From a virus, in the IMG/VR virus record IMGVR_UViG_3300047368_000327, positions 1-64,000 of that record: a DNA stretch of 64,000 bases; one strand, 5' to 3'. The notes under the pieces are model-generated. The model was not told the DNA's origin. It searched no databases and was given only the letters and a program-made list of their open reading frames with translations. A program made the translations under genes and the position numbers. Numbering within the stretch: the stretch's first letter is position 1; every line of letters starts with the position of its first letter. Below, piece after piece: positions 1,686 to 45,980 of this stretch.

Positions 1686-4600
1686 ATGGCAGGAATAAGG
1701 GCAGATGTAAATCTTAATGTAAATACTTCTCAAGCGAAGAGAAGTATGGACAGGGCTGCGGCCGAGATAAATAAAGTCGTAAATAATATAGGCGGCAAAC
1801 AAATATCTTTTAATGTTAATGGTAGAAGTTTTACTCAGCCTCTTGGTCGAATCACTGCTTCGGCGAACGAATTCACTAAATCGCTGGAAGCTTCTAATGC
1901 GCGTGTTATAGCTTTTGGAGCTTCAGTAGGAATAATAAATGGAATATCTGATGCCTTTAAGAATTTAGTTCTTGAGACGGTAAAGTTTGAAAAAACATTG
2001 ATGGATATTAATGTGGTTCTGAACGCCTCTTCTCAATCTTTGCAGGAATTTGGTAGTGGATTATTTGATGTAGCTAAAAACACGGCTCAATCCTTTACTG
2101 TGGCATCTGAGGCTGCTTTAGAGTTTTCACGTCAAGGTTTAACCATGGAAGAGGTTCTAATCAGAACAAATGATGCGTTGACTTTGACTAGGTTGACCGG
2201 GCTAAAAGCTGCTGAAGCCGTATCTGGGTTAACGGCTGCGGTAAATGCATTCGGGCAGGCAGGCTTAAGTACTACAGATATTATTGATAAGCTAGCTGCA
2301 GTAGATGTTCAGTTTGCTGTAAGTTCAGAAGATTTAATTAATGCATTAGAGCGAACTGGAGCAGTCGCAATTGACGCAGGTGTTGAAATAGACAGCTTGA
2401 TTGGTTTGGTTACAGCCTTGCAGCAAACAACTGCTCGTGGTGGCGCAGTTATAGGTAATGGACTTAAAACTATATTTACCAGAATACAAAGGCCTCAGTC
2501 TATACAGCAATTAGAAGATATGGGTATAGCTGTAAAGAATTTATCTGGAGCAATATTGCCTGCCGATAAGATCATGCTAAATATGGCGAAGTCTTTTGAC
2601 TCGTTAACTCAGTCTCAGCAATCAAACATAGTTCAGTTTTCAGCTGGAATATTTCAGGCCAATGTATTTAGAGCAGCCTTGAAAGATTTATCGAAGGAAC
2701 AGAGTATTCAAGCTCAAGCTACCAAAATAGCTGGAGATGCTTCTGGGGATGCTGCCGTAAAAAACGAGATGCTCAACAAGACCATGTCTGCAATGGCGTC
2801 TCAAACTGTTTCATCAATTGAGGAGCTTGCTGAAACAATTGGTAAGTTAGCTTTTACCCCAGAAATAGGAGGGTTTTTATCTTTTATTCAGGATGGAGTA
2901 GAGGGCATAAAAAACATGCTTGGAGGTGGAGAAGAAGAGGGAGATGCTTTTGCCAAAGGCTTGGTTAAGGGTATAGGCAATGTTCTAACTGGACCAGCAG
3001 CAATAGCTTTCGGCGCAATTTTTATAAAACTTTTTGTAAATATATCTAAGTTCGCAAATAACTCACTGAAAGATGTGCTTGGAATAGTTAGTGAAAAGGA
3101 TAAAGTTAAGCAAATGGAAGAATCCATAACCAAGGCTTTATCTGATAATTTAAAACTGCAAGAGGGTTTAAATAATTTAGAAGGTGATCGAAAAGCTCAA
3201 GAGCAATTCATATTAGGTATAATCGAGAAACAAAATAAAGCAATGGCGGAGCAAGCAAATCTGGCTGCGCGTTTAGCTAAACCTTTGGTTAGGGCTGGGA
3301 TAAATCCAGATTTCACTTCTTCAGCGCCAGTTACCGCTTCATCCGGAGTACTGCCAGAGGCGGCCAAAAAAGAAAGAAAAGGAGCTTCTCGGGGTGGTTA
3401 TTCAGCAGGAGCCGTGGACTCAATGGATATTCCTGGGATGGGGGAAGTTGTTTATAATAAAGCTGAAAAAGTAAAGCAGTTCCCAGGGATGAGACAACCT
3501 GCAATTATGCCTCCCGAGCAAAGTAGGGCAGGAAGAACTTACAGAGATGCTTTTGCTGGTCAGCACGGGTTTGATCCGTATGCTAGTGGGGGATTAATTC
3601 CTAATTTTGCAAGAATGGAGGGTAGTAAATTAGTTTTAGATAAATCAAAGATGAAATTAATGGCAGATCCTCAACAAGCTAGGGTTGGTCAAAAGATAAG
3701 GAAAAGCTATGCAGAACTATCAAATAGTGGTCGACCTGTAAATATAGAAGCTGATATCAATAATCTTACTGTTGGCCGAGGCGGCAGTCATACAGCTAAA
3801 ATAAAAGACGTCCTTTCATTTTTAAGGAGCGAGGGAGTAGGAAGTATAGAAAGACCTTTTGATTTAGAAAAACTACCATTCAGGGGGAAAAAAGATGGTC
3901 AAGGAGCAGAAAAGGCTAGCCTTAAGGCTTTAGGTACTAAATATTTTTCAACTGGAGGTAAATCAGGAGACGAGACTTTTCCAGTCGATCTTGCTGGTTT
4001 AGATATGACTCCTTATGAAGTAAAGTCAGGGCAATGGAAGCTTCCGAATGTTTTATTGAAGAGTCTTCGTTTGTATACTGATGATGGATTATTGACTTTT
4101 GCTGAAAAGTATTTTGGGGCTGACCGAGAAATGATTCAGGAGGCCAGGGATGAGAAATTTAAAAAATCATCTGGTTTATTAAAAAAGAAAGGCTTTATAA
4201 AAGAAGGCTTAAATAGAAAAGAACAAGAAGATATAATAAATAGATTTCTTCTTCATGGTGGCTTAATTCCTAATTTTGCTGACGATAAGGTTAAGCCTGT
4301 TAAATCTATAGCTAATATTATTGACGGAGATAGTATAGAGGCCGATATTTTAGTTGGCACTCAAAGAGTAGATCACAGATTGCAAGGAGTAGATGCTGTA
4401 GAAAAAAATCAAGCATATGGGACTAGAGCTACAACTATAGCTAAAAACTTTTACAATGATGATAAAAAGGGAAGACTAAGACTTAGAGATCGTATAGTCC
4501 AAGATGGAAAAGCTGCATACGGAAGAGGGCTTTTTAAAGATCAAGATTTAGCAAGGACTTTAATTGAAAAAGGATATGGAGTTCCTGATGCTGGATACCT

Positions 4601-7600
4601 AAATAAATCAGAATACTTTAAATATCAAGAAATTGCTGAGAAAGCCAAAAGTAAGGGTGTTGGTATATGGAGAGACAAAACTAAAAAGACAGGAAAATAT
4701 AGGCATCCTAAAGCACAATTTTATTTACATCAGCAAGGTATAGTTCAAAAGGCTGACAAGTGGAAAGATGTTACTGTTTCAGACACTAGATTTTATAAAG
4801 AAGGGGTTAACTTATCAAATAAAAAATTTAAAGGTTATGCTGATGGCGGTAGAAAGTTTAGGCATTCTGGATTGATTCCCAATTTTATTGACACGAGAAC
4901 TCGTCAGCAAAAAATTCAAGACGTATTACGTGATCCAGCAAATAAAGGTATTAATTTCAAGGGTGGAGCCCTTGCTCCGATGTCAATTAAATCTAAGAAC
5001 ATGTTTCACCAAATGTTCTTGGAGAGTTATGTAAACAAAGGATTGGAAAGCGATTACGATATGCTCGTAAAGATGGGTTATGATCCTCAAGAAATAACTG
5101 CAGCAAGAAAACACAAGCAAAAGGGTGGAAAAGTTAATGTTTTAGCCAAAGGCCATGTGCCCAACTTTGCGGCTAGCTGGAAAAGATTTAAAAAATTTGA
5201 TAAAAATCAATACCTTAAAAGTTTAAAAAAGGGCAAAAGCAATAACGAGCAAGCCAAGATCGATGCATACGTAAAAGCCGCAGGAGGAGCCCAAAAGTTT
5301 CAAAGATTGAATGAGAAGTTTGGGTTAGATAAAGTTGACGACATATTTCAGATACTTGGATTTGCAAAAGGTTATGTCCCTAATTTTGCAAACCCTTTAG
5401 AAGACGCTATATCAAGAGAAAAAGCAGCAGGAGTTCCTCAAGAAAGAATCAGAGTAGAAAAAAGTAGTCAATTGAAGGGTCCGCAAAACCCTATGGGGCT
5501 AGCCGTAACTAATACGAGAGATGAACCGGCGGGAGTGCAACAAGGAATACGTCGCGCTAAAAGCATGGGGGTTAACCCAAAAGAGCATGGAGCTAACGTT
5601 GGCTTTGTGCCCAATTTTGAAAGCGATGATTCCAGGGTTCAGAGACTAGAAAAAGGCACCTCAGTAAAAGTAGGTTTCAAAGATCTTGAGAACTCCGTAA
5701 AAAAACTCTCATCATCTGTAGATAAAGCCGCTAAAAAAATCAGCGAAAACCAAAAGAAAATTGATAATAAAAGTGCCTCGTTAAATAAGGAAGAGCTACT
5801 AAAAAACGAGAATGATATTATCAAAAAAATGACGACGGCCAAGAAGGGGGAATTAAGAGGTCTTAAAGCGCAGTTTGATGCGAACTTAAAACTTAGGGAG
5901 TCTGTACATGAATCCACTAGAGCTATAGATGATTCTTCTGATGCAGAGGGTTCATCTCTTCAGAAGCTTTTCTACATGCAATCTGCGATCAGTTTGGTTA
6001 ATGGTCAATTTGAACAGCTATCAGAAACATCTTCTGGCATGACAAAAGTATTCGCAGATGCTATTCTTGGAGTTAGCAACCTTACCGCCGCATACATTCA
6101 GCAAAAAGAACTTGTTAGTGAGGGCATGAACATGCTTGGAACAAAGAGGAGCGAGTCTTTCTCTTTGGGACAAATTGTAGACCCAGAGGCAAGGCAATCG
6201 AGAAGGAGGGCAGCTGCTGCCGCCGAAGCTAGAGTTTCCGGGTCTAGGGTTGGTAGGGGTGGGGCACTTTCAGGCTTAATCGGGGGCGCAGGTAAACTCA
6301 GTAGAGCGTTTGGTAGATTTTTGCCACTAGTGGGGCAGGCATATACTTTGTTTACTGGATTAAATGAGGCTTTTAAGTTTTTTAATATTGGCGAAATGTT
6401 TGGATTGGAGAAAGGCTCAGGACTGATGGATTTACTGAGCACCACCTCTGAAAGGGCGTCAAAGAAGATAGAAAAACTAGGAGAAAGTACGGATAAATTG
6501 CAATCAGCATTTGAGAGCTTGCAGACTCAATCTCAGAATAATGAAAAAATAGATGAGCTGGAGATCTTGGGCGCAAGAAGAACCCAAAAACAAGAGCTAA
6601 AGTTGCAAGAGCTGAAGCTAAAGGGTTTTGATTTAGAGGTAAAATCCCAAGAAGCAATGTCTGCGTTATTGGACGAAAATATGGTTGGATCAAAAGTTGC
6701 TCAGAAATTTACTGAGGAATTAGCTAAGGGTACAACTGGCAATGAAGACTACTCTAGGATCATAAAAGAAGTTATAGCCGCTCAAAGGAAGCAAATGTCG
6801 TTTCTGCAGGGAACGAAATCTTTTGGAGAGTTGATTGATAAAAAACTCGATGTATTTTCCGCCGATAAAGGTGAGGAAAAATTTCTTAAATCTGCAGCAA
6901 AAATGAGAGGCTCTCAGCTTGGAATGGGGCTTTCTAGTGTTCTAGCTGGAGAAGAAAGCGCTGAAACGGAAGATAGACTTAAGATTTTAAATAGAAACAT
7001 TGCCGCCTTATCAAAGGAAACAAGCGTTGATTTAACAAGCATGGGCGATTTAAGCAGTTTAACCGATAGGCTTTCTTCTGGGCTAAAAGGTACTGAGAAT
7101 TTTGATTCAGAAATGATTGCGTCACAGATCAATATGCTGGGAAACAATATTGACGAAGCTATAGATAACACCTCAGGCTTACACAAGGTTGAATCAGAGG
7201 CTTTTGGTGGGGCAATGGAGAAAATAGTTTCGCAGCTTAGAATATTCAAAAAACAACTAGAGGGAGAGTCTGAAAGAAAGCAAGAAGTTCAGCTTAAAAA
7301 AGAATACATAGAGGCATACAAACAAGTAATCTTCGAGATTGGTGAATTCAGAAAAAACACGAAGCACGAGTCAAAGCTATCTCTCGAGGCATTAAAACAT
7401 TCAAGTTCCATACTTCTCTCTAGCGAGAAGCTATCATTGCAATACAATGCTATCGAAAAAGAAGCCGCTATATCTCTCGAGTTCGCAAGAAAGAGAAACG
7501 AAATAGACAGTAAATTTACAAACGATTTGCAGGCTGCAGAAATCGGAGTCATTGACAGCTTAAATAAAACTAGGGATACGTATTTAAACACTGAAGCTTT

Positions 7601-10600
7601 AGCCTCCATGTTTAATAAAAAAGGATCCGAGGCTGATAAGGCGGTAGGAGAGCTAAAGAAGAAAATTAATGAAGGAGTAAAAGCTACAGACTTTTCAGCG
7701 GTGCAAACCGAACTGGGCATAACGCTTGACAGCTCTGCAATGGATTCAATAAATAAGATATTTCAGGACGTAGCAGATGAGTCGAAAAATTTTAATAGCA
7801 ATATTCAAATAATGACAATGCTCGCAAAAAAACATGGCGAGATTCTTGACTCAAATAATTCTGCAGCCTTAATAACATTATTACATCAAAAAGGAATTGT
7901 TAATATAAGTGCAGAAGATTTAATTAAAGCAAAACAAATTTTAAAAGAAAAAGACAGAAAGCTTGAATCATTAAAACAGTCAGCAGACAATCAAAAAGCC
8001 ATAACTGACCAAAACGAAAAAGAAAGACTTATTTCGGAAAAAACCGTAAAGGGCGCTACCGCATTATTTAGGCATTTGGGAATGGATGTTGATGCTCAAG
8101 CCGCGATAACCAAGAACCGTGAAAACATTCTAAAAAGCATAAAAGGCGAAGCCATGCATATGGCCGTAACAAACAAGCAGGGCGAGGGTTTGGCGTCAGC
8201 AGTAGCTCAAAGTTTAGAGATGCAACAAAAAGGTCTCGAGTCGCAAAAGGAGAAAAATAGAAATGACGCGATTGCGGCCGTGTTATCTCTTAGACAATTA
8301 GAGGCTCAGACAGGTGCGCTCGCTGAATCTGAAGACAATAAAATTATTTTAGAAGCTAAAAATAAGAGCGAAATTTTAAATGCCGAAAGGGCTGCTCAAG
8401 AATCGCAATCAAGGTTGGAGTTTTTAAGTGGTCAGAAAAGCCGATCCGAGTTAGTAAAGCAACAGCTTGCTAAGGAAATTGCAGATTTAAGAAGTGGTAA
8501 TTTATTGGCGGCTGAAAAGAATAAACAACTATCAGAAGGTAAGGCTCTTACCGAACTAGTTGGAGAGCAAAGAGAGCAAGCGCTTCATTCCGCCAGGCTG
8601 GAAGCTTTAATTGCAGCGGAAAACGCAATACTTCTCACTGAGAAAGGCAAGCAGGCTAAACTAATCCAGCAGGCAAATGAATTACAGGAAGCCTCCAACA
8701 AGTTGACTGAATTTCAAAATGCAATAACTAAAGCAAAGGTAGATAAGAGGGCTTTGGCCGTTACTGCTGGGGCTGATATTGGAATTGAGAAAGCTAATGC
8801 GATTGCGTCAACAAGAACCGCAGGGATGAGGGCTCAAATAGATCCTAGTGCTGAAAATATGGCTGCTTATGCTGCTTCGCTTGAGGAGACTAATAAATTG
8901 CTTGGTAATGGTAGTAGAGCAATGGATAGGCTTAGATCAAAAATGGCAGAACTTAATGTTGGTGCAGAAAATCTTGGTGCTGATTTAGTGGATATTGGAA
9001 TTGATAATGCAAGAAGTGGGCTTAAGCAGTTGTTCAAGGATATTGGTAGCGGTTCAAAAAGCGCAAGTGAGGCATGGTCTGACTTTGGTCTAGGCCTTGC
9101 GGATCAATTGCTTGATCGAATGATGGACGCAAACATAGATAAGATTTTAAAAGACTTGACATTTGCGTTTACCGGAGAAGAAGGAAAATCTGACGAAGCT
9201 AAAATGACTGATGAGATGCGTCATTTTGGTGGGGTACTTGAAAAACTTAATACTCCATTGGGAGACTTAACTTCTGAAGTTAGAGCTCTTAAGGAGGTTA
9301 TGCAGAATCAAATTTCAAAAGAAGAGGGTGTTAATACGCCACCTGATGCAAAAATACCTGATGGTTCTACTTTTAAGCCAGGTCAAAGCCCTGGTGGAGC
9401 TTTTGCGGATGTACAGATACAATCACAAATAGCCAAAGACATACAGGGTGCTAAAACATTCGTGAAAACATTTAAAGACGCTTCGATAGATATATTTACG
9501 GACTTTGCGAGTAGGGCAATTGGTATTTTTAAGGGGTTAACTCAGTCTCAAGCGACAGAGGCAGGAACTGCTAAATCAAAGGAATATAGAACCACAGATC
9601 TTTACGAGGCTCAGGATGAATTAAGTAGTTTTAAACAAAATAATCTTTTTAAGCCTAAACCAAAACAAATAAATCAAATGAATTTTTCAGAGAAAGGTGA
9701 TTACGTTTTGGAACAACTGATGCCTATAAATGAAGAAATGCAGATGTCAGAGTATAAAGAGCAAAGATCAAACATCTTTAACCAGGAAGCGAAAAACAAT
9801 ATAATAGCTAAATCCATTGAAGAAAAAAAACTTAAAGAACTTGAAGAACGACTTGCCCAGGTGAAGAAAATAGAAAACCCAAGTCGTGGTGAACATCAGG
9901 AACTAAAAACACTTAAAACTGAAATAAATGAAAGCAAAGGAAAAATTAAAGATCTTGGAAAAAAAATAAAGCCAGTTATAGAAAATCTCGAAGGATTAGA
10001 TGAAGAATTTAATCAAGCAAAAAGCGCACTTCAAGAATTAACAAGTAAAGTAGGCGAGATAAATAAGAACTTGCGCCTTCAGGAGATCAATATTCCAGAA
10101 TTGCAAACCTCAACAGATCGGCTGATGCAAAATTCAAATCCAGAAGCTTATAAGATTCTAACCGGAGGAATGTTGTCAGGCGGCAAAATACAGCACTTCG
10201 CAAAGGGCGGATTTGTAGACGGGCCAGCAGGTGTAGATAAAGTTCCTGCAATGTTAACGGCGGGAGAATATGTCGTACCAAAAGAACAAGCAAAGCAATT
10301 CAAGCATAGCGGCGGAGAGATACAGAATTTTTCAATAGGTGGAATGGCCAAAGAGCTAAACAACCCAAACACTGAAAGCAGGCCAATCAGGGGAGCTCAA
10401 GGGGTGACACAGTTACTGGTCATGAACGAAGTCGCTCGCGGGGTGGCTAAATATTTAGAAAAGCCAAAAGATGACGGGCCTCCGACATTTGATAAAAATA
10501 AATTCAACAATTTAGACCTAAGGTCAGATGTAAACATTAAGCGTGGAGACCCCAGGTTGAGTGCAAGATTTTTAGCTAAAGATCCAGTGATGCAGGAATA

Positions 10601-11654
10601 CAGAGATTACCTTCTGGAGAAAGCCGCTTACGATGTAGAAAAGAAAAACCAAAAAGTCGACAAAAAAATGCAAACAATCGGCTCTATAGTTTCATTTATG
10701 AGCACCTTTGCGATGGCCGAAATGACAAGTGCTATGAAACCTTATGTTGAGAAAGCGGTTGGATGGGCAAAAGACAAGGCTACCAATTTAACCAAGGGCC
10801 ACATGGGCTTAGGTGAGCATTCTAAAGCTTTTAAGCAAGCAAGAAAGCAGAATATAGACATGGATTACAGCGACCTTAAGGGCGCTGAGTCTACTGGGTA
10901 TTTAATATCTAATGATAATAAAGCTTACGCTATGTCTAGAAAGGGAACTTGGAATCTTGATCCGTCAAAAACTTTAAGCCACAGAAGAGCTCTACAAGAA
11001 AATATAAAGAAGCAATCAACAAAGCGTCAGTCTGGCGGATCAGTACCTGCAATGCTTACCGCAGGAGAAGGTTTTGTTCCAGCAGCAATAGCGAAAAGAA
11101 TTGGCTACGATAATTTAAACAGAATGAATACCACTGGAGATCTCCCGATCATTCAGGGCAAGGGCGGTATAGATAATGTTGGACCAGTGGGTTTAACCGA
11201 GGGAGACTTTATAATCAAGAAGAGCTCAACAGACAAACTTCTTAGAGAAAATCCAAACATGATGAGATTTGCATTGCAAAACCCAGAAGGATTTAAGAGG
11301 GGTGAGCGTGGATACTATGAAGGTGGGGTTGTCGGCGACGCACCAGCGGTACCAACTTCTTCTGTACCGAGAGCAGCGCCAACAAACCGAATTAAAAACT
11401 CTAATCCGGTTGAAATGTTCAACCAATCTTTTAATCAAAAAAGCGAGCCAGCTGTTGCGACCCAGCAAAAAAGTGAAACAACAAACAATATAAACGTTAA
11501 CGTAACCATAGATCAAACCGGCAAAGAGAGTGTGTCAACTGATGGTTCAGCTAGCTCTTACGAAGAAGAACAACAACTTTCACTAAAAATAAAAAGCGCA
11601 GTAATGGATGTTATTAGGGAAGAGAAAAGGATAGGCGGAGAGCTTAGCTCATGA
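1686..11654 (+). CDS. Tail tape measure protein (TP901-type N-terminal domain) with internal cargo modules including SNase and PD-(D/E)xK-like domains
   Basis: 3322 aa. N-terminal TMP signature (FEKTLMDINVV...AALEFSRQG...DKLAAVD...IGNGLKTIFTR), long coiled coil and C-terminal FAKGG..GP..D.VPAMLT.GE motifs. Lies between tube and tip genes. Confidence 0.92.
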   Translation: MAGIRADVNLNVNTSQAKRSMDRAAAEINKVVNNIGGKQISFNVNGRSFTQPLGRITASANEFTKSLEASNARVIAFGASVGIINGISDAFKNLVLETVKFEKTLMDINVVLNASSQSLQEFGSGLFDVAKNTAQSFTVASEAALEFSRQGLTMEEVLIRTNDALTLTRLTGLKAAEAVSGLTAAVNAFGQAGLSTTDIIDKLAAVDVQFAVSSEDLINALERTGAVAIDAGVEIDSLIGLVTALQQTTARGGAVIGNGLKTIFTRIQRPQSIQQLEDMGIAVKNLSGAILPADKIMLNMAKSFDSLTQSQQSNIVQFSAGIFQANVFRAALKDLSKEQSIQAQATKIAGDASGDAAVKNEMLNKTMSAMASQTVSSIEELAETIGKLAFTPEIGGFLSFIQDGVEGIKNMLGGGEEEGDAFAKGLVKGIGNVLTGPAAIAFGAIFIKLFVNISKFANNSLKDVLGIVSEKDKVKQMEESITKALSDNLKLQEGLNNLEGDRKAQEQFILGIIEKQNKAMAEQANLAARLAKPLVRAGINPDFTSSAPVTASSGVLPEAAKKERKGASRGGYSAGAVDSMDIPGMGEVVYNKAEKVKQFPGMRQPAIMPPEQSRAGRTYRDAFAGQHGFDPYASGGLIPNFARMEGSKLVLDKSKMKLMADPQQARVGQKIRKSYAELSNSGRPVNIEADINNLTVGRGGSHTAKIKDVLSFLRSEGVGSIERPFDLEKLPFRGKKDGQGAEKASLKALGTKYFSTGGKSGDETFPVDLAGLDMTPYEVKSGQWKLPNVLLKSLRLYTDDGLLTFAEKYFGADREMIQEARDEKFKKSSGLLKKKGFIKEGLNRKEQEDIINRFLLHGGLIPNFADDKVKPVKSIANIIDGDSIEADILVGTQRVDHRLQGVDAVEKNQAYGTRATTIAKNFYNDDKKGRLRLRDRIVQDGKAAYGRGLFKDQDLARTLIEKGYGVPDAGYLNKSEYFKYQEIAEKAKSKGVGIWRDKTKKTGKYRHPKAQFYLHQQGIVQKADKWKDVTVSDTRFYKEGVNLSNKKFKGYADGGRKFRHSGLIPNFIDTRTRQQKIQDVLRDPANKGINFKGGALAPMSIKSKNMFHQMFLESYVNKGLESDYDMLVKMGYDPQEITAARKHKQKGGKVNVLAKGHVPNFAASWKRFKKFDKNQYLKSLKKGKSNNEQAKIDAYVKAAGGAQKFQRLNEKFGLDKVDDIFQILGFAKGYVPNFANPLEDAISREKAAGVPQERIRVEKSSQLKGPQNPMGLAVTNTRDEPAGVQQGIRRAKSMGVNPKEHGANVGFVPNFESDDSRVQRLEKGTSVKVGFKDLENSVKKLSSSVDKAAKKISENQKKIDNKSASLNKEELLKNENDIIKKMTTAKKGELRGLKAQFDANLKLRESVHESTRAIDDSSDAEGSSLQKLFYMQSAISLVNGQFEQLSETSSGMTKVFADAILGVSNLTAAYIQQKELVSEGMNMLGTKRSESFSLGQIVDPEARQSRRRAAAAAEARVSGSRVGRGGALSGLIGGAGKLSRAFGRFLPLVGQAYTLFTGLNEAFKFFNIGEMFGLEKGSGLMDLLSTTSERASKKIEKLGESTDKLQSAFESLQTQSQNNEKIDELEILGARRTQKQELKLQELKLKGFDLEVKSQEAMSALLDENMVGSKVAQKFTEELAKGTTGNEDYSRIIKEVIAAQRKQMSFLQGTKSFGELIDKKLDVFSADKGEEKFLKSAAKMRGSQLGMGLSSVLAGEESAETEDRLKILNRNIAALSKETSVDLTSMGDLSSLTDRLSSGLKGTENFDSEMIASQINMLGNNIDEAIDNTSGLHKVESEAFGGAMEKIVSQLRIFKKQLEGESERKQEVQLKKEYIEAYKQVIFEIGEFRKNTKHESKLSLEALKHSSSILLSSEKLSLQYNAIEKEAAISLEFARKRNEIDSKFTNDLQAAEIGVIDSLNKTRDTYLNTEALASMFNKKGSEADKAVGELKKKINEGVKATDFSAVQTELGITLDSSAMDSINKIFQDVADESKNFNSNIQIMTMLAKKHGEILDSNNSAALITLLHQKGIVNISAEDLIKAKQILKEKDRKLESLKQSADNQKAITDQNEKERLISEKTVKGATALFRHLGMDVDAQAAITKNRENILKSIKGEAMHMAVTNKQGEGLASAVAQSLEMQQKGLESQKEKNRNDAIAAVLSLRQLEAQTGALAESEDNKIILEAKNKSEILNAERAAQESQSRLEFLSGQKSRSELVKQQLAKEIADLRSGNLLAAEKNKQLSEGKALTELVGEQREQALHSARLEALIAAENAILLTEKGKQAKLIQQANELQEASNKLTEFQNAITKAKVDKRALAVTAGADIGIEKANAIASTRTAGMRAQIDPSAENMAAYAASLEETNKLLGNGSRAMDRLRSKMAELNVGAENLGADLVDIGIDNARSGLKQLFKDIGSGSKSASEAWSDFGLGLADQLLDRMMDANIDKILKDLTFAFTGEEGKSDEAKMTDEMRHFGGVLEKLNTPLGDLTSEVRALKEVMQNQISKEEGVNTPPDAKIPDGSTFKPGQSPGGAFADVQIQSQIAKDIQGAKTFVKTFKDASIDIFTDFASRAIGIFKGLTQSQATEAGTAKSKEYRTTDLYEAQDELSSFKQNNLFKPKPKQINQMNFSEKGDYVLEQLMPINEEMQMSEYKEQRSNIFNQEAKNNIIAKSIEEKKLKELEERLAQVKKIENPSRGEHQELKTLKTEINESKGKIKDLGKKIKPVIENLEGLDEEFNQAKSALQELTSKVGEINKNLRLQEINIPELQTSTDRLMQNSNPEAYKILTGGMLSGGKIQHFAKGGFVDGPAGVDKVPAMLTAGEYVVPKEQAKQFKHSGGEIQNFSIGGMAKELNNPNTESRPIRGAQGVTQLLVMNEVARGVAKYLEKPKDDGPPTFDKNKFNNLDLRSDVNIKRGDPRLSARFLAKDPVMQEYRDYLLEKAAYDVEKKNQKVDKKMQTIGSIVSFMSTFAMAEMTSAMKPYVEKAVGWAKDKATNLTKGHMGLGEHSKAFKQARKQNIDMDYSDLKGAESTGYLISNDNKAYAMSRKGTWNLDPSKTLSHRRALQENIKKQSTKRQSGGSVPAMLTAGEGFVPAAIAKRIGYDNLNRMNTTGDLPIIQGKGGIDNVGPVGLTEGDFIIKKSSTDKLLRENPNMMRFALQNPEGFKRGERGYYEGGVVGDAPAVPTSSVPRAAPTNRIKNSNPVEMFNQSFNQKSEPAVATQQKSETTNNINVNVTIDQTGKESVSTDGSASSYEEEQQLSLKIKSAVMDVIREEKRIGGELSS
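3591..5621 (+). repeat. Six dispersed in-frame GxxPNF repeats in the TMP (3591, 4260, 4869, 5151, 5370, 5601)
   Basis: GLIPNFA, GLIPNFA, GLIPNFI, GHVPNFA, GYVPNFA, GFVPNFE. The first two are 19/20 identical at DNA level (GGMTTAATTCCTAATTTTGC). Confidence 0.9.
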
Positions 11655-40048: not shown

Positions 40049-40843
40049 ATGTCAAGTGAAAAAATTAAGTTAAGTATTTTTTGCTCGATATTCAAAGGGG
40101 CAAAATTTATCCATCATTACCTAGAGGATATAACTAGGCAGACAATATTCAATCAATGCGAATTAATTTTGATTGATGCGAATTCACCTGACGGTGAGGG
40201 TTTAGTAATAAGCAAATATTTAGAAAAGTACGAAAACATAAAGTACATTAGATTGGACAAGGATCCTGGCTTATATGCATGCTGGAATATAGCGATAAAG
40301 GAATCCTCAGGACAGCTATTGAATAACGCTAACCTTGATGATTCAAAAAGAATTGACGCCCTTGAGATTCAATCTAATTATCTTAATGATAACCCCGACG
40401 TGGATTTAGTTTATGCAGACAGCCTAATATCTAATTTGATAAATTGCGATTATGATAAAGCATTAGTTAGCAGTAGGTATAGATATAATTTCCCCGACTT
40501 CTCCATAGCTAACTTAATAGATTGTAACCCACCACACCAATCCCCCGTCTACAGAAAGAAGCTTCATGACAAGTTTGGTTACTTTGATGACAACTATAGA
40601 TCTGCTGCGGATAGCGAATTTTGGCTAAGGTGCGCTTCGGGCGGATCCAATATGAGGAAGATAGAAGACGTACTAGGAGTTTATTATAATAACCCAATGG
40701 GTGTATCAACTAACCCCGGTAACGATGATTGGAAAATCAGGGAAGAAGTAGAAATCAGGGATAAGTATAAAGAATACGGAACTTTACACAGGGGTAACAC
40801 TAGAAGGATAATTCACAATATGTCAAACCTCTTATCTTCGTGA
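40049..40843 (+). CDS. GT2 glycosyltransferase
   Basis: ELILIDANSPD, GLYACWNIAI, NANLDD, SAADSEFWLR. Confidence 0.88.
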   Translation: MSSEKIKLSIFCSIFKGAKFIHHYLEDITRQTIFNQCELILIDANSPDGEGLVISKYLEKYENIKYIRLDKDPGLYACWNIAIKESSGQLLNNANLDDSKRIDALEIQSNYLNDNPDVDLVYADSLISNLINCDYDKALVSSRYRYNFPDFSIANLIDCNPPHQSPVYRKKLHDKFGYFDDNYRSAADSEFWLRCASGGSNMRKIEDVLGVYYNNPMGVSTNPGNDDWKIREEVEIRDKYKEYGTLHRGNTRRIIHNMSNLLSS

Positions 40844-41550
40844 GCCGATTAGGCATTGTGCAACCAGGAAGGCTCGGTGATATAATTATATGTTTACCGA
40901 TTGCCAAATATTACAATAATTTAGGTTTTGAGGTTTTCTGGCCAGTTCTAGATGAATACCTACCATTATTCAATAATATAGATTACGTTACAGCTTTACC
41001 AATGAAAACAGATATAACAAGCTGCGTCCACCACGCCTATTCAATAACTAAAGGTTTTGAAAAAATAATCGACTTAAGTTTTGGCTTTCATTATAGCAAG
41101 ATTCATCACAAATACCACGGAAACGATTCGTTTGCAACCAACTTTGTTGAAGCAAAATATAAATTAGCTAACGTACCAATTACTGAAAGATGGAATCTCC
41201 AATATCATAGAAACAAGGAAAGGGAAAACAAACTTTTTAATAAACTGCATCAAGGCTTCAAGTATACCTTGGTTCACGGAGAATCCTCACAAGGCAAGCA
41301 CGTAAATTTTTCAGGCGATAGTATAATAAAAGTTAGACCTATTACTGGATTTAACATATTCGACTGGAGGAAGCTTGCCTTAAATGCAACCAAGATCTAC
41401 TGCGTAGACAGCTCCTTCTGTAATTTCATTGAGTCTGATAAATCTTTTAAAGATAAAGAAAAAATTTACATACCAGCCAAACTAATGGAAAGTAAATGGG
41501 GGTGGACAACTCTTGAAAACAATTGGATTATAGATGAGCCAAACAAATAA
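40840..41550 (+). CDS. GT9-like glycosyltransferase
   Basis: QPGRLGDIIICLP...IYCVDSSF. Confidence 0.55.
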   Translation: MSRLGIVQPGRLGDIIICLPIAKYYNNLGFEVFWPVLDEYLPLFNNIDYVTALPMKTDITSCVHHAYSITKGFEKIIDLSFGFHYSKIHHKYHGNDSFATNFVEAKYKLANVPITERWNLQYHRNKERENKLFNKLHQGFKYTLVHGESSQGKHVNFSGDSIIKVRPITGFNIFDWRKLALNATKIYCVDSSFCNFIESDKSFKDKEKIYIPAKLMESKWGWTTLENNWIIDEPNK

Positions 41551-42370
41551 AGGTTTAAAAATTTTACCAATTGAAAACGCTACCCAAGGCTGGTTAACTA
41601 AAGAAAGCTGCACTATAGTTGAATGCCCGCATGATGCAGATTTCATAATTTTCGAAAAAACCGGAGACCCCGAGCTCGAAATCAGGAGGTTAAAACAAAA
41701 ATTCAACAAACACTTACATAAACTAGTTTTCATATTAAGTGGTGATATAGATTTCTCTGACAATACATCCATTTGGTTCTGCTCTAGCTTAAAACCGAAT
41801 CATAAAAACAAATTTCAAATATATACATTAAATCCTAGGGTTTATAGACTAGACCCCGAATTAAAACCTAAAAAAATAAAAGGATTCTTTTCGGGCACGA
41901 TCTGGAATACCCCAGAGAGACAATGCTTAAAGAATCTACCAAATAACTGGGTTATCGAAGATCGAGACTGGTGGGGCGCAGACGAAAATTCTCAATTAAA
42001 ACTATCCAAGCATACATATGACATGATGAGAAGTTCTTACTACACGTTATGTCCTAAAGGTAAAGGCTCATCGTCCATGAGAGTATCCGAAGCATTAGCT
42101 TGCGGCTCGATACCTATATTAATTAACGACAACTCTAATCCATTTTGTGAAAATTATGGAGGCATACCTATCAGGATAACTAAAGATGAAATATCTAATG
42201 TGAATAATATCATTGACGGCCTAGGAAACCCAAGCGAAAAAGAGCTGTTAAACTCGTTAATGTTTTATAAATCCAATATCTGTAAGAATAATATTACTAC
42301 ATGGACAATATGCAGTGGTTTTTCTCATAAAATAATATCAACCCTTAAATTAATTAAAAGAACAATATGA
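41534..42370 (+). CDS. Exostosin-family (GT47) glycosyltransferase
   Basis: SYYTLCPKGKGSSSMRVSEALACGSIPILI is the exostosin C-terminal signature. Confidence 0.75.
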   Translation: MSQTNKGLKILPIENATQGWLTKESCTIVECPHDADFIIFEKTGDPELEIRRLKQKFNKHLHKLVFILSGDIDFSDNTSIWFCSSLKPNHKNKFQIYTLNPRVYRLDPELKPKKIKGFFSGTIWNTPERQCLKNLPNNWVIEDRDWWGADENSQLKLSKHTYDMMRSSYYTLCPKGKGSSSMRVSEALACGSIPILINDNSNPFCENYGGIPIRITKDEISNVNNIIDGLGNPSEKELLNSLMFYKSNICKNNITTWTICSGFSHKIISTLKLIKRTI

Positions 42371-42942
42371 ACATAGTTCAAATCGGCGTAAACAAATCAT
42401 TGGATGCTTGCCATAAATTCATACAATCAAACAAGGATTACATAGAAAATATATACCTAGTAGAGCCACTGCCTAGCTGCATACCAGATATTAAGTCTGC
42501 ATTCAAAAATTTTGATAATGTAAAAATATTCAACTTAGCCATATGCGACAATAACAGCGAAACTTCTTTAAAATTTTATTTCCCTGCAAATGACCCCAAA
42601 AGTGGCCACGCATCCTTTAAATACGACCACCTCTTAGCTCACGGGCACAGACAAATAGATTCAATAGATATCGAATGCATAACTCTTGACGATTTTTTTA
42701 AAAACAATTCAATTGTTGATTGCGAAAGATTATATATTGATACCGAAGGCCTTGATTGTTCAATATTATTGAATTTTAATTACCCTAAATATAATATCAA
42801 ATATATTGAATTCGAAAAGATACACTCAGATGGTGCTTTCACTCAGGGCCTTAATTACAAAAAATGCATCGATAAATTTAAAATGAACAATTATGAAATT
42901 AAACCGGTTGGCAAATGGAACTGCGCAGCAATTAATAAATGA
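42367..42942 (+). CDS. FkbM-family methyltransferase
   Basis: VQIGVN, LVEP, ITLDDFF, IDTEGLD. Confidence 0.85.
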   Translation: MNIVQIGVNKSLDACHKFIQSNKDYIENIYLVEPLPSCIPDIKSAFKNFDNVKIFNLAICDNNSETSLKFYFPANDPKSGHASFKYDHLLAHGHRQIDSIDIECITLDDFFKNNSIVDCERLYIDTEGLDCSILLNFNYPKYNIKYIEFEKIHSDGAFTQGLNYKKCIDKFKMNNYEIKPVGKWNCAAINK

Positions 42943-43916
42943 AATGGCTATTAATATCAACTATAGGTAAAAACCCAGGAGATGAATTCATAAGGGTTGG
43001 CGTCAAGAACTTAATAAAAGAAGTAGACGAAAACTGCAGCATAAAAGTACTAGATAAAGAAGCGCAAAGCATGCCTCACCCAGTTGAATTCGACAAATGC
43101 ATCTGGGCGGGAATGCCTGTATTTTGGAGTTTATTTCAAAACAACAATTGGAACATTAATTGGTGGAGGTATATGGTTGGCGGCTGGCCCTCTAAAGTTA
43201 AAAACAATTTTTGCGTACTGGGAGCCGGAAGCTTTCAGGACTGGTCAGATATAGACAGGGGCCTAGATCGAGCAAGCATGTCTCGCAGCGCCCAAGATCT
43301 TTCCAATAACTCATTCTTGGTTACAGCTAGAGATCCAATCGTAAATAACATATGTAACTCTAATTTCCCAACCCTCACCTGCCCAGCTATATTCTCTACG
43401 GCTAACAAAGAAAAGACTAAGTCAATCAAAGCCTGCAACCTAATGCCAAATGGGGCCCATTACGATGTATTCAATCCCAGCGAAGGTAATGTTTGGCGCT
43501 CCATCCAAGAAGATTTGTCCTTAATATTAATAGATAATGGTTTTAAATTTTTCGCCCACTCAGATGCGGAACTTAACCACGCGATTGCATTAGGTTGGCA
43601 AACCAAGGATATCATATCTTACAATGGAGACCCAGATCAAATGCTTGAACATTACAGGAATGTAGATATGTTCTTCGGCAATAGAGTTCATGGTTGCATA
43701 GTCTCTAGAGCCAATGGAGCCGATGTTATTTCCTGTGGCTACGACTCTAGACAGGAGGCTGTTAAGATTTCCGGAGCAAAAGCCTTCCTACCTTCAAACA
43801 TTGATCTGAATTTAATTTCAAAATGGGCCAGCTCGGAACCTAAAATAAATAAATTCGACATAAAGACACTGTCAAATAAATACATTGAAATATTAGAAAA
43901 TTTTAAAAACAAATAA
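42939..43916 (+). CDS. Polysaccharide pyruvyl transferase-like protein
   Basis: NPGDEFI, TARD, CPA, GNRVHGCI. Confidence 0.7.
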   Translation: MKWLLISTIGKNPGDEFIRVGVKNLIKEVDENCSIKVLDKEAQSMPHPVEFDKCIWAGMPVFWSLFQNNNWNINWWRYMVGGWPSKVKNNFCVLGAGSFQDWSDIDRGLDRASMSRSAQDLSNNSFLVTARDPIVNNICNSNFPTLTCPAIFSTANKEKTKSIKACNLMPNGAHYDVFNPSEGNVWRSIQEDLSLILIDNGFKFFAHSDAELNHAIALGWQTKDIISYNGDPDQMLEHYRNVDMFFGNRVHGCIVSRANGADVISCGYDSRQEAVKISGAKAFLPSNIDLNLISKWASSEPKINKFDIKTLSNKYIEILENFKNK

Positions 43917-43956
43917 AAACGTTTAAAAAATAACCTTAACTCATTATCATCTAATA

Positions 43957-45009
43957 ATGAAAAAAATAATCATAACAGGAGTAACAGGTCAAGACGGAAG
44001 CCATATGGCCGACTATTTAATAGATTTATTGACCGAAGAATTATGTGAATCTGGATTCAAGATATACGGCGCGGTAAGACGTCTTAGTGTAAAGAATCAC
44101 GAGAACATTATTCACCTTGAAGACCATCCTAATTTTAAATTAATCAACATGGATCTCAATGATGCCCACAGTATGCGGGATGTGATCATTGACATACAGC
44201 CTGACTATTTCATAAACTTCGCAGCTCAATCCTTTGTCGCTGGAAGTTGGGATTACCCCATTCAGACTTGGGATACTGACGCTGATGCCGTACTTCATAT
44301 ACTTGAGTCGATCCGTAGATTTTCCCCCAAATGCAGGTTTTATAACGCTGGATCTTCTGAAGAATTTGGTGATGTTGTTTGTGTGCCTCAAGATGAAAAT
44401 CACCCACTTAGACCACAGTCTCCATATGGTGCCGCAAAATGTGCAGCCCGACATATCGTCAGAGTATACAGGGAGTCTTACAATTTGTATGCAGTTCAAG
44501 GTTGGTTATTCAATCACGAGGGAACTCGCAGGGGCTTAGATTTTGTTACTAGAAAAATAACTAATAGTGTTGCTAAAATTAAACTTGCATTAGAAAACGG
44601 AAAAGAGATACCAATATTAAAACTTGGCAACCTCGAAGCAAAGCGGGACTGGAGCGACGCAGAAGACTTCATGTCTGGTGTATGGATTATGTTGAATCAA
44701 GATAAGCCAAAGAACTACGTTTTAGGTAGTGGAGAAATGCATAGCGTGAGAGAGTTCCTAGAGACAACCCTGAAATTTGCCGGTATTGAATTCTACTCAG
44801 AAGGAAAAAATGATAACGAAAAGTTTTATACGAAAAAAGGTAAATTATTCTTCGAGGTTAGTCCTAAATTTTATAGACCGGCCGAAGTCCATAAGCTTTG
44901 TGGCGACTGCAGTTTAGCGGAAAAAGAAATGGGCTGGGTTCGTAAAACAGATTTTCCTGGTTTAGTTAAAAAGATGTACGAAAACGATTACCGACTATTG
45001 TCTAAGTGA
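43957..45009 (+). CDS. gmd: GDP-mannose 4,6-dehydratase
   Basis: ITGVTGQDGS, AAQSFV, SSEEFG, PQSPYGAAK, LFNHE, GNLEAKRDW. Confidence 0.97.
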   Translation: MKKIIITGVTGQDGSHMADYLIDLLTEELCESGFKIYGAVRRLSVKNHENIIHLEDHPNFKLINMDLNDAHSMRDVIIDIQPDYFINFAAQSFVAGSWDYPIQTWDTDADAVLHILESIRRFSPKCRFYNAGSSEEFGDVVCVPQDENHPLRPQSPYGAAKCAARHIVRVYRESYNLYAVQGWLFNHEGTRRGLDFVTRKITNSVAKIKLALENGKEIPILKLGNLEAKRDWSDAEDFMSGVWIMLNQDKPKNYVLGSGEMHSVREFLETTLKFAGIEFYSEGKNDNEKFYTKKGKLFFEVSPKFYRPAEVHKLCGDCSLAEKEMGWVRKTDFPGLVKKMYENDYRLLSK

Positions 45010-45962: not shown

Positions 45963-45966
45963 ACAG

Positions 45967-45980
45967 GTGTATACATAAGT
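45967..45980 (+). promoter_or_regulatory. GTGTA element 9 nt upstream of ATG
   Basis: GTGTA-TACATAAGT-ATG. Confidence 0.55.

What the first reader, a model, noticed from the sequence alone, without database searches (positions are those of the whole stretch)
4281..4868. Staphylococcal nuclease (thermonuclease) domain inside the tape measure protein
Seen: the module between repeats 2 and 3 reads IIDGDSI...HRLQGVDAVEKNQAYGTRAT...AYGRGL...LIEKGYG...AEKAKSKGVGIW. Established: this matches the SNase signature DGDT / RLxGxDxPE / YGR / K.GLW, and the metal-binding and catalytic D, D, E and both R equivalents are present. The Asp of the usual DxYGR is missing. Inference: an active Ca2+-dependent nuclease is delivered with the virion. 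It could attack host nucleic acid, defence RNAs or extracellular DNA.
Basis: partly seen in the sequence, partly recalled or inferred. Interest (0 to 1): 0.8.

Follow-up and report, generated by a model that had tools for sequence, protein, structure and literature searches.

The report
Staphylococcal-type nuclease inside phage tape measure
The tail-length "ruler" protein of an uncultured phage really does contain a staphylococcal-type nuclease with every catalytic residue intact, as one swappable cassette in a string of cargo modules, so the tail probably releases a ready-made nuclease at the cell just ahead of the phage DNA, though neither cutting nor delivery has been shown.

Summary
Window 4281-4868 encodes residues 866-1061 of a 3322-aa tape measure protein (TMP, ORF 1686-11654).

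- **Domain identity.** Residues 874-1000 are a true SNase domain. Pfam PF00565 scores 28 bits against a cut-off of 21. A clade profile matches S. aureus nuclease in the PDB at E 1.3e-9. The AlphaFold model (pLDDT above 90 over the domain) superposes on S. aureus nuclease at Z 14.5.
- **Active site.** D19, D21, R35, D40, E43, Y85, R87, Y113 and W140 equivalents are invariant in all 30 TMP-borne copies found, down to 38% identity.
- **Cassette behaviour.** The module sits between G-[LF]-[IV]-P-N-F linkers. A TMP that is 87-94% identical on both sides carries an unrelated 242-aa segment in its place, with the left break exactly at the linker. Against another relative the SNase is 83% identical (dS 0.41, dN/dS 0.22), while the flanking TMP is 28-53% identical with saturated dS.
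- **What is inferred.** Catalytic activity, retention in the virion and the target are not shown. The precedents are P23-45 gp96 (TMP-fused virion RNA polymerase) and T5 pb2C.
- **Novelty.** I found no paper describing an SNase in a TMP. This scan has met the same TMP cargo-array family on other DNA.
- **Verdict.** A real feature and a new variant of a known kind.

The parts
1686..11654 (+). Tape measure protein gene, 3322 aa, no Cys
   Evidence: Single open frame. PF10145 E 7e-22. PHROG TMP families E 3e-41 to 5e-7. Downstream ORFs hit minor tail protein PHROGs.
2073..2633 (+). PhageMin_Tail core domain (residues 130-316)
   Evidence: Pfam PF10145, 78.8 bits.
2982..3038 (+). Strongly hydrophobic, membrane-helix-like segment (residues 433-451)
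   Evidence: Kyte-Doolittle 19-residue mean of 2.0, the highest in the protein.
3588..3608 (+). Linker repeat 1, GGLIPNF (start of the cargo array)
   Evidence: Motif scan. Consensus (S/A)-x-G-[LF]-[IV]-P-N-F-A from 921 copies in 120 TMPs.
3612..4256 (+). Module 1 (residues 643-857): candidate PD-(D/E)xK nuclease, not established
   Evidence: Invariant E...PxD...EVKSG...N...KSxR..SD in 15-51 homologues. AF2 pLDDT 88. No significant PDB fold match; best Z 2.7 to FAN1.
4257..4277 (+). Linker repeat 2, GGLIPNF; left junction of the SNase cassette
   Evidence: Homology with P0006 (87% identity) stops exactly at residue 864, the Phe of this repeat.
4305..4685 (+). SNase (thermonuclease) domain, residues 874-1000. 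Catalytic equivalents: D882 (D21), R898 (R35), D903 (D40), E906 (E43), Y945 (Y85), R947 (R87), Y971 (Y113), W995 (W140)
   Evidence: Pfam PF00565, 28 bits against cut-off 21. PDB profile E 1.3e-9. AF2 pLDDT above 90. Foldseek E 4e-7, probability 1.0. VIA Z 14.5, rmsd 2.6 A over 115 residues. These residues are invariant in 30 of 30 copies.
4686..4865 (+). C-terminal tail of the SNase module (residues 1001-1060), with a conserved H-P-K-[AR] motif; predicted disordered or weakly helical
   Evidence: pLDDT 36-62. H142, K144 and Q151 are nearly invariant in the clade alignment. Homology with P0006 resumes at residue 1044.
4866..4886 (+). Linker repeat 3, SGLIPNF; right end of the SNase module
4890..5150 (+). 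Module 3 (residues 1069-1154), no known family
   Evidence: No Pfam hit above cut-off. Present in 56 of 120 related TMPs.
5151..5168 (+). Linker repeat 4, GHVPNF
5172..5369 (+). Module 4 (residues 1163-1227), Lys-rich, no known family
   Evidence: Present in 12 of 120 related TMPs.
5370..5387 (+). Linker repeat 5, GYVPNF
5391..5600 (+). Module 5 (residues 1236-1304), conserved in every related TMP; closes the array
   Evidence: Present in 120 of 120 listed TMPs, typically at 65-85% identity in the rows that match over only 11-13% of the query; assigning those short matches to module 5 is my inference. No family hit.
5601..5618 (+). Linker repeat 6, GFVPNF (end of the array; the coiled-coil ruler part follows)

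Best explanation
Residues 874-1000 of the tape measure protein are a true, probably catalytically competent member of the staphylococcal nuclease family: an OB-fold, Ca2+-dependent, sequence-non-specific phosphodiesterase. It is one exchangeable cassette in a linker-delimited array of cargo modules (residues 640-1310). The array lies between the N-terminal TMP core with its hydrophobic helix and the long coiled-coil ruler part. Because the cassette is covalently part of the TMP, it would be built into the tail tube during assembly, most likely in a non-native, extended state. It would then be expelled with the TMP when infection is triggered, just ahead of the genome. There it would fold and cut nucleic acid at the entry site without waiting for any phage gene to be expressed. 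Shown here: domain identity, the intact and conserved active site, purifying selection, and cassette exchange at the linkers. Inferred: enzymatic activity, presence in the mature virion, unfolded transit, site of action and substrate. My split for the site and target, given that it is an active ejected nuclease, is as follows. About half: the cytoplasmic side of the entry pore, acting on host DNA or RNA, by analogy with the P23-45 TMP-fused RNA polymerase. About a third: the Ca2+-rich periplasm or envelope, acting on foreign or competitor DNA. The rest is unknown.
For: Family membership:
- Pfam above cut-off.
- Clade profile against the PDB, E 1.3e-9.
- Model superposes on S. aureus nuclease at Z 14.5, TM 0.65-0.70.

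Active site: D19, D21, R35, D40, E43, Y85, R87, Y113 and W140 equivalents are invariant in 30 of 30 TMP-borne copies whose pairwise identity falls to 38%.

Selection: dN/dS is 0.22 in the domain against its closest IMG/VR relative.

Cassette behaviour:
- The SNase is present in 30 of 120 related giant TMPs, starting anywhere from residue 620 to 2165.
- P0006 is 87-94% identical on both sides but carries an unrelated 242-aa segment instead, with the left break exactly at linker 2.
- SNase dS is 0.41 while flanking TMP parts have dS above 2 and 28-53% identity, so the cassette moved recently between diverged TMPs.
- All close relatives of the domain (E below 1e-10) are TMPs or TMP fragments that carry the PNF linker.

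Delivery, by precedent:
- T5 TMP is expelled from the tube on receptor binding. [quoted passage not shown]
- The N-terminal part of the P23-45 TMP is a virion RNA polymerase that transcribes pre-early genes (PMC10770324).

From my own knowledge, not tested here: S. aureus nuclease has no Cys and refolds spontaneously, which would suit passage through a narrow tube. The whole TMP has no Cys.
Against: - No activity, virion proteomics or infection data exist for this uncultured phage or any relative.
- Some substrate-contact residues differ from the S. aureus enzyme: K84 to Ala/Ser, Y115 variable, T41 to Ala, D83 to Ala.
- A non-specific nuclease released next to the phage's own incoming DNA is hazardous, and no self-protection is evident.
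- Canonical SNase needs far more Ca2+ than free cytoplasmic levels (my own knowledge), which argues against a cytoplasmic role.
- Folded 16-kDa domains in three TMP copies fit a tail lumen poorly.
- The module lies in the N-terminal third, the part of a TMP expected to leave last, and it could be cut off at the linkers before or during assembly.
Confidence: 0.6

Rival explanations
1. The nuclease is active but is not delivered to a new host. The TMP precursor would be cut at the PNF linkers during tail maturation. The freed SNase would then work in the producer cell or in the lysate, for example breaking down host DNA late in infection or clearing viscous DNA at lysis once seawater Ca2+ reaches it.
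For: TMPs are known to be proteolytically processed during tail morphogenesis: T5 pb2 after R1127, and lambda gpH (PMC10038345). The invariant linkers on both sides of every module look like processing or docking sites: 921 copies with consensus G-[LF]-[IV]-P-N-F-A. SNase chemistry suits Ca2+-rich extracellular conditions (my own knowledge).
Against: No peptidase domain or HExxH motif is present in this TMP. In T5 the cleaved enzymatic fragment nevertheless stays in the tail and is ejected. Encoding a lysate enzyme inside an essential structural gene, at the few copies per virion expected of a TMP (three are modelled in T5), is an inefficient way to make it. Free-standing SNase genes are the usual phage solution (PHROG 452).
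Confidence: 0.15
2. The domain serves mainly as a nucleic-acid-binding OB fold rather than a degradative enzyme. Sitting in the head-proximal third of the TMP, it would hold or pilot the leading end of the phage genome through the channel. Cleavage would be suppressed where free Ca2+ is low.
For: SNase is an OB-fold protein that binds nucleic acid. The array is in the N-terminal third of the TMP, the part nearest the DNA in the tail (inference from general TMP polarity). Catalytically dead SNase folds occur in other virion proteins according to earlier notes of this scan (e1-5936949, e1-5802116; not checked by me).
Against: Every catalytic and metal-binding residue is invariant in 30 of 30 copies, which a pure binder would not need. 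The cassette is dispensable: 90 of 120 related TMPs lack it, and a 90%-identical TMP replaces it with something else. It therefore cannot be a core part of DNA piloting.
Confidence: 0.1
3. The cassette is a neutral or selfish passenger that spreads by recombination at the repeated linkers and gives the phage no benefit.
For: Patchy distribution, variable position and recent lateral exchange between diverged TMPs.
Against: dN/dS is 0.22, and the active site is strictly conserved across copies only 38% identical. The frame is intact throughout a 3322-codon essential gene. SNase is non-specific, so it cannot act as a homing endonuclease.
Confidence: 0.05

Closest known systems
Staphylococcus aureus nuclease A (thermonuclease; Pfam PF00565; e.g. 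PDB 3bdc, 3shl)
   Same: Same fold: model Z 14.5, rmsd 2.6-3.6 A over 115-122 of 129 residues. The same Ca2+ ligands and catalytic residues are kept (D21, D40, E43, R35, R87), as are Y85, Y113 and W140. The best matches are the Delta+PHS variants that lack the 44-49 loop, and this domain is naturally short there.
   Different: About 24% identity. It is embedded in the middle of a 3322-aa virion protein rather than being a secreted 149-aa enzyme. T41 to Ala, D83 to Ala, K84 to Ala and Y115 to Asn. The DAPE motif reads DAVE. It has an extra conserved ~60-aa tail with an HPK motif. Activity is untested.
Thermus phage P23-45 gp96, a 5002-aa TMP whose N-terminal part is a virion RNA polymerase (PMC10770324)
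   Same: A giant TMP carries a nucleic-acid enzyme in its N-terminal portion, with a membrane-spanning segment. The enzyme acts at the very start of infection, before phage gene expression.
   Different: The cargo there is an RNA polymerase with a metallopeptidase domain, and it is a fixed part of the protein. Here the cargo is a nuclease in a shuffled array fenced by PNF linkers, with no peptidase. No sequence relation beyond the generic TMP nature was tested.
TMPs with muralytic domains: T5 pb2 / pb2C (PMC10038345) and SPbeta YomI transglycosylase-TMP
   Same: An enzyme domain is built into the TMP, stored in the tail and expelled on infection. For T5, cleavage from the ruler part and possible refolding after ejection are documented or proposed. 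The SPbeta-type TMPs share the N-terminal PF10145 core at about 29% identity.
   Different: Those enzymes attack peptidoglycan and sit at the C-terminal, tip-proximal end. This one is a nuclease in the N-terminal third, and it is optional among close relatives.
Polyvalent proteins of phages and conjugative elements (Iyer, Burroughs, Anand, de Souza, Aravind 2017, PMC5512222)
   Same: Many unrelated effector-type domains sit in one polypeptide that is thought to enter the host with the DNA. Domain content is shuffled between relatives.
   Different: Polyvalent proteins are organised around zincin-like metallopeptidase hubs and are mostly head-packaged or conjugation-transferred. That paper mentions neither tape measure proteins nor SNase. 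This TMP has no HExxH motif, and its modules are fenced by an invariant short linker.
BtI1 prophage homologue of the phage 0305phi8-36 gp147 baseplate hub, with an N-terminal SNase domain (PMC2147016)
   Same: An SNase-family domain is fused to a tail protein that contacts the host first. Its role was stated to be unclear in 2007.
   Different: That protein is a gp27-like hub at the tail tip, not a tape measure. It is in a Bacillus prophage-like element and has no linker-delimited array.
TMP-related modular effectors of actinobacterial contractile injection systems (Sle1 type; PMC13277306, PMC11126660)
   Same: A TMP-derived scaffold carries exchangeable functional domains that are ejected through a phage-tail-like tube.
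   Different: These are cellular contractile injection systems, not phages. The functional domains are different, and no nuclease is mentioned.

Membership tests
SNase / thermonuclease (Pfam PF00565) | Sequence matches the family HMM above the curated gathering score | tested here: met
   28.0 bits for the segment and 24.4 bits for the whole TMP against a cut-off of 21, covering model positions 3-106 of 107. A six-frame search gives 29.1 bits.
SNase / thermonuclease (Pfam PF00565) | OB-fold beta-barrel packed against three helices, as in S. aureus nuclease | tested here: met
   The AF2 model has pLDDT above 90 over residues 9-135. The top 50 Foldseek PDB hits are all S. aureus nuclease, E 4e-7, TM 0.65-0.70. 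VIA Z 14.5. Caveat: the model draws a helix where strand 4 is expected (segment residues 61-71, block pLDDT 72).
SNase / thermonuclease (Pfam PF00565) | Ca2+-binding residues Asp21 and Asp40 (plus the Thr41 backbone carbonyl) | tested here: met
   D882 and D903 align to D21 and D40 and are invariant in 30 of 30 copies. Position 41 is Ala in 30 of 30, which is tolerable if the ligand is the backbone carbonyl.
SNase / thermonuclease (Pfam PF00565) | Catalytic Glu43 (general base) and phosphate-binding Arg35 and Arg87 | tested here: met
   E906, R898 and R947 are aligned and invariant in 30 of 30 copies.
SNase / thermonuclease (Pfam PF00565) | Substrate-contact residues Lys84, Tyr85, Tyr113 and Tyr115 | tested here: inconclusive
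   Y85 and Y113 are invariant. K84 is Ala or Ser, and Y115 is Asn, Ser, Thr, Gly or Arg. The effect on activity or specificity is unknown.
SNase / thermonuclease (Pfam PF00565) | Ca2+-dependent hydrolysis of DNA and RNA | not testable with these tools
   Needs a recombinant protein assay.
Phage tail tape measure protein (TP901 / PhageMin_Tail type) | PF10145 core, very long mostly helical protein, gene placed just upstream of the distal tail and baseplate genes | tested here: met
   PF10145 E 7e-22. PHROG TMP families. Downstream ORFs match minor tail protein PHROGs 14, 18 and 30. Coiled-coil-type weak hits in the C-terminal part.
Phage tail tape measure protein (TP901 / PhageMin_Tail type) | Occupies the tail tube lumen, sets tail length and is ejected before the DNA | not testable with these tools
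   The phage is uncultured and no virion data exist. Inferred from T5 and P23-45.
Polyvalent proteins (Iyer et al. 2017) | Several unrelated effector domains in one polypeptide with shuffled architectures | tested here: met
   Five modules here. Across 120 TMPs, 762 inter-linker segments fall into 91 clusters. Presence and absence are variable.
Polyvalent proteins (Iyer et al. 2017) | Zincin-like metallopeptidase (HExxH) hub domain for autoprocessing (in about 36% of members) | tested here: not met
   The window TMP has no HExxH motif, and only 5 of 120 relatives have the bare motif. There is no peptidase Pfam hit. This feature is common in the family but not obligatory.

The most novel reading that the evidence does not exclude
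The giant tape measure proteins of a large group of uncultured, apparently marine phages act as programmable protein-injection devices. An invariant short linker (G-[LF]-[IV]-P-N-F) fences interchangeable effector cassettes. These include this SNase, a probable PD-(D/E)xK nuclease next to it and dozens of unknown folds. The cassettes would be threaded unfolded through the tail ahead of the DNA and then be released or activated at the linkers. That would make the array a phage counterpart of MARTX or polymorphic-toxin architectures. Under this reading the SNase is a first-strike weapon against host or rival nucleic acid that needs no phage gene expression.
Probability: 0.35. Interest if true: 0.85.

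Novelty: new variant of a known kind. Interest (0 to 1): 0.66.

Why it matters
Tape measure proteins are textbook rulers and channel-formers. The enzymes known inside them are cell-wall hydrolases and, in one thermophilic phage, an RNA polymerase. A conserved, apparently active, non-specific nuclease that is swapped in and out of the TMP at fixed linkers would extend what is known about what a siphophage tail delivers.

It suggests that some phages bring a DNA- or RNA-cutting enzyme to the cell at the instant of infection, before any gene is expressed. That bears on three topics: host takeover, competition between phages, and how phages meet nucleic-acid-based defences.

It also raises a concrete puzzle: how the phage's own DNA, which follows through the same conduit, escapes. 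The SNase is the one module of the array with a recognisable, easily assayed activity. That makes it the practical handle for testing whether the whole cargo array is delivered and functional.

Tried and rejected
- **Cultured phages.** tblastn of the SNase segment and of module 5 against 50,697 cultured-phage records gave no match. Only the generic N-terminal TMP core hits, at under 30% identity, in Bacillus, Lactococcus and other phages. No cultured relative and no host clue came from this.
- **GTDB genomes.** A scan of species-representative genomes with the clade alignment found only two distant free-standing SNases of 159 and 168 aa (Novosphingobium, Rhodospirillaceae). No prophage TMP copy was found.
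- **IMG/VR.** The protein query found one relative. A degenerate DNA pattern for [VI]DHRLxx[VI]DAxE found six loci, and all of them encode relatives of the segment by tblastn.
- **Mistyped patterns.** One pattern had too few plain bases. One had a miscounted gap and returned nothing.
- **NCBIfam.** No hit for the SNase segment, module 1 or module 5.
- **Module 1.** No Pfam, PHROG or PDB-sequence hit. No near-length homologues. No Foldseek match. VIA-wide best Z was 2.7 (FAN1) and 2.5 (CdiA-CT). The Atlas gave only weak leads to R.HinP1I and SmaI at 0.85 and 0.82. The PD-(D/E)xK reading therefore rests on the invariant motif alone.
- **Atlas look-up of the segment that replaces the SNase in P0006.** Pfam finds nothing in P0006, P0014 or P0020 beyond PF10145.
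- **Homing-endonuclease idea.** Rejected, because SNase is non-specific and the linkers are conserved at the protein level, not the DNA level.
- **Zincin autoprocessing idea.** Rejected, because there is no HExxH motif.
- **Literature.** No paper in the searchable library links a tape measure protein with SNase or thermonuclease.

Full report
**1. What is at the coordinates**

It is residues 866-1061 of a single 3322-codon ORF at 1686-11654 on the + strand.

That ORF is a tape measure protein (TMP). It matches Pfam PF10145 (PhageMin_Tail) at residues 130-316 with E 7e-22, and eight PHROG 'tail length tape measure' families down to E 3e-41. Genes downstream match minor tail protein PHROGs.

The record is an IMG/VR virus contig of 103,642 bp, estimated 73% complete, and the window is its first 64 kb. 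Elsewhere the window encodes class I ribonucleotide reductase, a sugar-nucleotide and glycosyltransferase cluster, and a papain-type protease. This is a large, uncultured tailed phage.

**2. Is it an SNase?**

Yes, by every test available.

- Pfam PF00565 scores 28.0 bits on the segment and 24.4 bits on the whole protein, against a gathering cut-off of 21. The match covers model positions 3-106 of 107.
- A six-frame search of the record gives 29.1 bits, and this is the only SNase in the record.
- PHROG 452 ('endonuclease') gives E 8e-8.
- phmmer against PDB sequences returns only S. aureus thermonuclease, best E 6e-4.
- A profile of ten TMP-borne copies (alignment A2) improves this to E 1.3e-9.
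- An AlphaFold2 model built on 44 sequences has pLDDT above 90 over segment residues 9-135. The last 60 residues are disordered.
- The top 50 Foldseek hits in the PDB are all S. aureus nuclease: E 4e-7, probability 1.0, TM 0.65-0.70 normalised by the target.
- VIA-align gives Z 14.5 and rmsd 2.6-3.6 A over 115-122 of 129 residues.

The best matches are the Delta+PHS variants, which lack loop 44-49. This domain is naturally short at that point.

One blemish remains. The model draws a helix where strand 4 of the barrel is expected (segment residues 61-71, block pLDDT 72).

**3. The active site**

In the HMMER alignments the S. aureus residues map onto the TMP as follows.

| S. aureus nuclease | TMP residue |
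|---|---|
| D19 | D880 |
| D21 | D882 |
| R35 | R898 |
| D40 | D903 |
| E43 | E906 |
| Y85 | Y945 |
| R87 | R947 |
| Y113 | Y971 |
| W140 | W995 |

I extracted the domain from the 30 related giant TMPs that carry it. All nine positions are invariant in 30 of 30 copies, although pairwise identity in the core falls to 38% (median 52%).

The differences from the S. aureus enzyme are systematic:
- T41 is Ala in all 30 copies. I recall that this Ca2+ ligand is the backbone carbonyl.
- K84 is Ala or Ser.
- Y115 is variable.

Against the closest IMG/VR relative, the domain has dN/dS 0.22. The sequence therefore behaves like an enzyme under selection, not a relic.

**4. Context: a linker-delimited, shuffled cargo array**

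The TMP contains six copies of G-x-[IV]-P-N-F, at residues 639, 862, 1065, 1159, 1232 and 1309. The motif occurs nowhere else in the window in a plausible frame. The repeats fence five modules.

A search with residues 640-1300 found 286 giant TMPs of 2000-5800 aa, nearly all from metagenomes. In the 120 listed:
- the linker occurs 921 times, with consensus (S/A)-x-G-[LF]-[IV]-P-N-F-A;
- module 5 is present in all 120, module 3 in 56, module 1 in 51, the SNase in 30 and module 4 in 12;
- the SNase starts anywhere from residue 620 to 2165;
- 762 inter-linker segments fall into 91 similarity clusters.

Two results show that the SNase is a mobile cassette.

First, P0006 is 87% identical to the window TMP over residues 1-864 and 94% identical over 1044-2576. 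Where the window has the SNase, P0006 has an unrelated 242-aa segment. The left break falls exactly on the Phe of linker 2.

Second, compare the window with the TMP on IMG/VR contig 3300031621_000027. The SNase is 83% identical with dS 0.41. The N-terminal core is 53% identical with dS above 2, and the coiled coil is 28% identical with saturated synonymous differences. The cassette is much younger in this pair than the scaffold.

**5. Relatives of the domain**

An exhaustive HMMER search of 1.84 billion representative proteins gave 80 hits. All but three of the 24 hits with E below 1e-10 are long proteins (900-4200 aa) that carry the domain a few hundred to about 1000 residues from the N-terminus. 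The three short ones (P0123, P0125, P0135) carry the PNF linker and are TMP fragments, as do the weaker short hits P0138 and P0142. Typical secreted SNases with signal peptides begin only at about E 3e-7.

The TMP-borne SNases thus form their own clade, with motifs DHRLxGVDAVEK, AAYxRGL and GxGxPDxxY.

No member was found in cultured phage genomes. None was found as a prophage in one genome per GTDB species.

**6. The neighbouring module**

Module 1 (residues 643-857) has an invariant E...PxD...EVKSG...N...KSxR..SD pattern in its homologues and a confident model with pLDDT 88.

It has no significant fold match. Foldseek finds nothing, and the best VIA scores are Z 2.7 (FAN1) and 2.5 (CdiA-CT). 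The Atlas leads to type II restriction enzymes are weak.

A second nuclease next to the SNase is therefore possible but not established.

**7. How it most likely works**

*Shown.* This is a bona fide SNase domain with a conserved active site, under purifying selection, inserted as an exchangeable cassette in the N-terminal third of a TMP.

[quoted passage not shown] Its enzymatic fragment pb2C is cleaved off during assembly yet kept in the tail. [quoted passage not shown] The N-terminal portion of the 5002-aa TMP of Thermus phage P23-45 is a virion RNA polymerase that transcribes pre-early genes (PMC10770324). A nucleic-acid enzyme carried by a TMP can therefore work inside the newly infected cell.

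*Inferred.* The SNase is loaded into the tail as part of the TMP and leaves just ahead of the DNA. It then folds and cuts nucleic acid near the entry pore. From my own knowledge, S. aureus nuclease has no Cys and refolds spontaneously. The whole TMP here has no Cys.

*Site and substrate are open.* Canonical SNase needs much more Ca2+ than the bacterial cytoplasm offers (my own knowledge). That favours the periplasm of a marine host. The P23-45 precedent, and the absence of obvious periplasmic substrates, favour the cytoplasmic side.

How the phage's own genome is spared is unexplained.

The rivals are scored in the Rival explanations section. They are cleavage at the linkers before assembly, a DNA-holding rather than DNA-cutting role, and a selfish passenger.

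**8. Comparison with what is known**

I found no paper that links a tape measure protein with SNase or thermonuclease. The nearest published observations are these:
- an SNase domain on the gp27-like hub of the Bacillus BtI1 element, function unknown (PMC2147016);
- muralytic domains in TMPs, in T5 and in SPbeta YomI;
- the P23-45 TMP-RNA polymerase fusion;
- polyvalent proteins, the nearest concept for multi-effector polypeptides that enter with the DNA (PMC5512222). That paper does not mention TMPs or SNase, and its metallopeptidase hub is absent here;
- TMP-derived modular effectors of actinobacterial injection systems (PMC13277306).

The co-occurrence of PF10145 and PF00565 is already visible in precomputed annotations of about a dozen metagenomic proteins. 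The architecture can thus be found in databases, but it has not been described or tested.

**9. Earlier notes of this scan**

The scan has met this class before on other DNA:
- TMPs with an internal intact SNase (e1-945830, e1-5848418, e1-5848406);
- PNF-fenced cargo arrays in TMPs of roughly 200-kb marine phages (e1-5692888, e1-5692898, e1-5341019, e1-5341026, e1-5780908).

These notes agree with what I found independently. Note e1-945830 gave me the lead to the P23-45 paper, which I then read.

**10. Verdict**

The domain call is correct. The functional reading is plausible but unproven.

This is a new variant of a known kind: an enzyme-bearing tape measure or polyvalent virion protein. Its cargo, a conserved nuclease, is easy to assay, which makes it the best experimental handle on the whole array.

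Noticed in passing
window 5391-5600 (TMP residues 1236-1304): Module 5 (NPLEDAISREKAAGVP...GLAVTNTRDEP...) is present in all 120 related giant TMPs, always as the last module before the coiled coil. The rows that match over only 11-13% of the query are typically 65-85% identical, which I assign to this module, although the rest of the proteins is only 25-50% identical. It has no Pfam, NCBIfam or PHROG family and no tblastn match in cultured phages. It is the most conserved piece of the whole TMP family, and its function is unknown.
   Followed up: partly
window 3612-4256 (TMP residues 643-857): Module 1, next to the SNase, has an invariant E...PxD...EVKSG...N...KSxR..SD pattern typical of PD-(D/E)xK nucleases and a confident AF2 model (pLDDT 88). 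It has no significant match to any solved structure; best Z is 2.7 to FAN1. It is either a very divergent nuclease or a new fold.
   Followed up: partly
window 4686-4865 (TMP residues 1001-1060): The SNase cassette carries a ~60-aa C-terminal tail with a nearly invariant H-P-K-[AR]...Q motif about 10 residues after the final Trp. It is predicted disordered. It may regulate or anchor the domain. Homology with the SNase-less relative P0006 resumes inside this tail (residue 1044), not at the linker.
   Followed up: no
window 1686-11654: The 3322-residue TMP contains no cysteine at all. It has one strongly hydrophobic helix (residues 433-451) just before the cargo array.
   Followed up: no
window 10230-10290 and about 11090-11150 (TMP residues about 2855-2875 and 3140-3160): A motif VPAMLTAGE(Y/G)(V/F)VP occurs twice in the C-terminal part of the TMP. 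The C-terminal region often matches twice in related TMPs, so this looks like a second, different repeat system near the tip-proximal end.
   Followed up: no
window 50745-51944: A papain-family cysteine protease gene (Pfam Peptidase_C1, E 3e-17) sits between the large and small ribonucleotide reductase subunit genes (47840-50317, 52670-53683). This is an unusual enzyme for a phage. I did not test whether it could process the TMP linkers.
   Followed up: no
window 40049-46892: A phage-encoded sugar-nucleotide and polysaccharide cluster: a GT2 glycosyltransferase, a polysaccharide pyruvyl transferase, GDP-mannose 4,6-dehydratase and two further epimerase/dehydratase genes. It suggests that the phage remodels a surface glycan or glycosylates its own components.
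   Followed up: no
L004 (IMGVR_UViG_3300044724_010870), 3467-4144, minus strand: In this distant relative the module-1-type domain also lies directly N-terminal to the SNase, as in the window. The pair may travel together in some lineages, although each also occurs alone.
   Followed up: no
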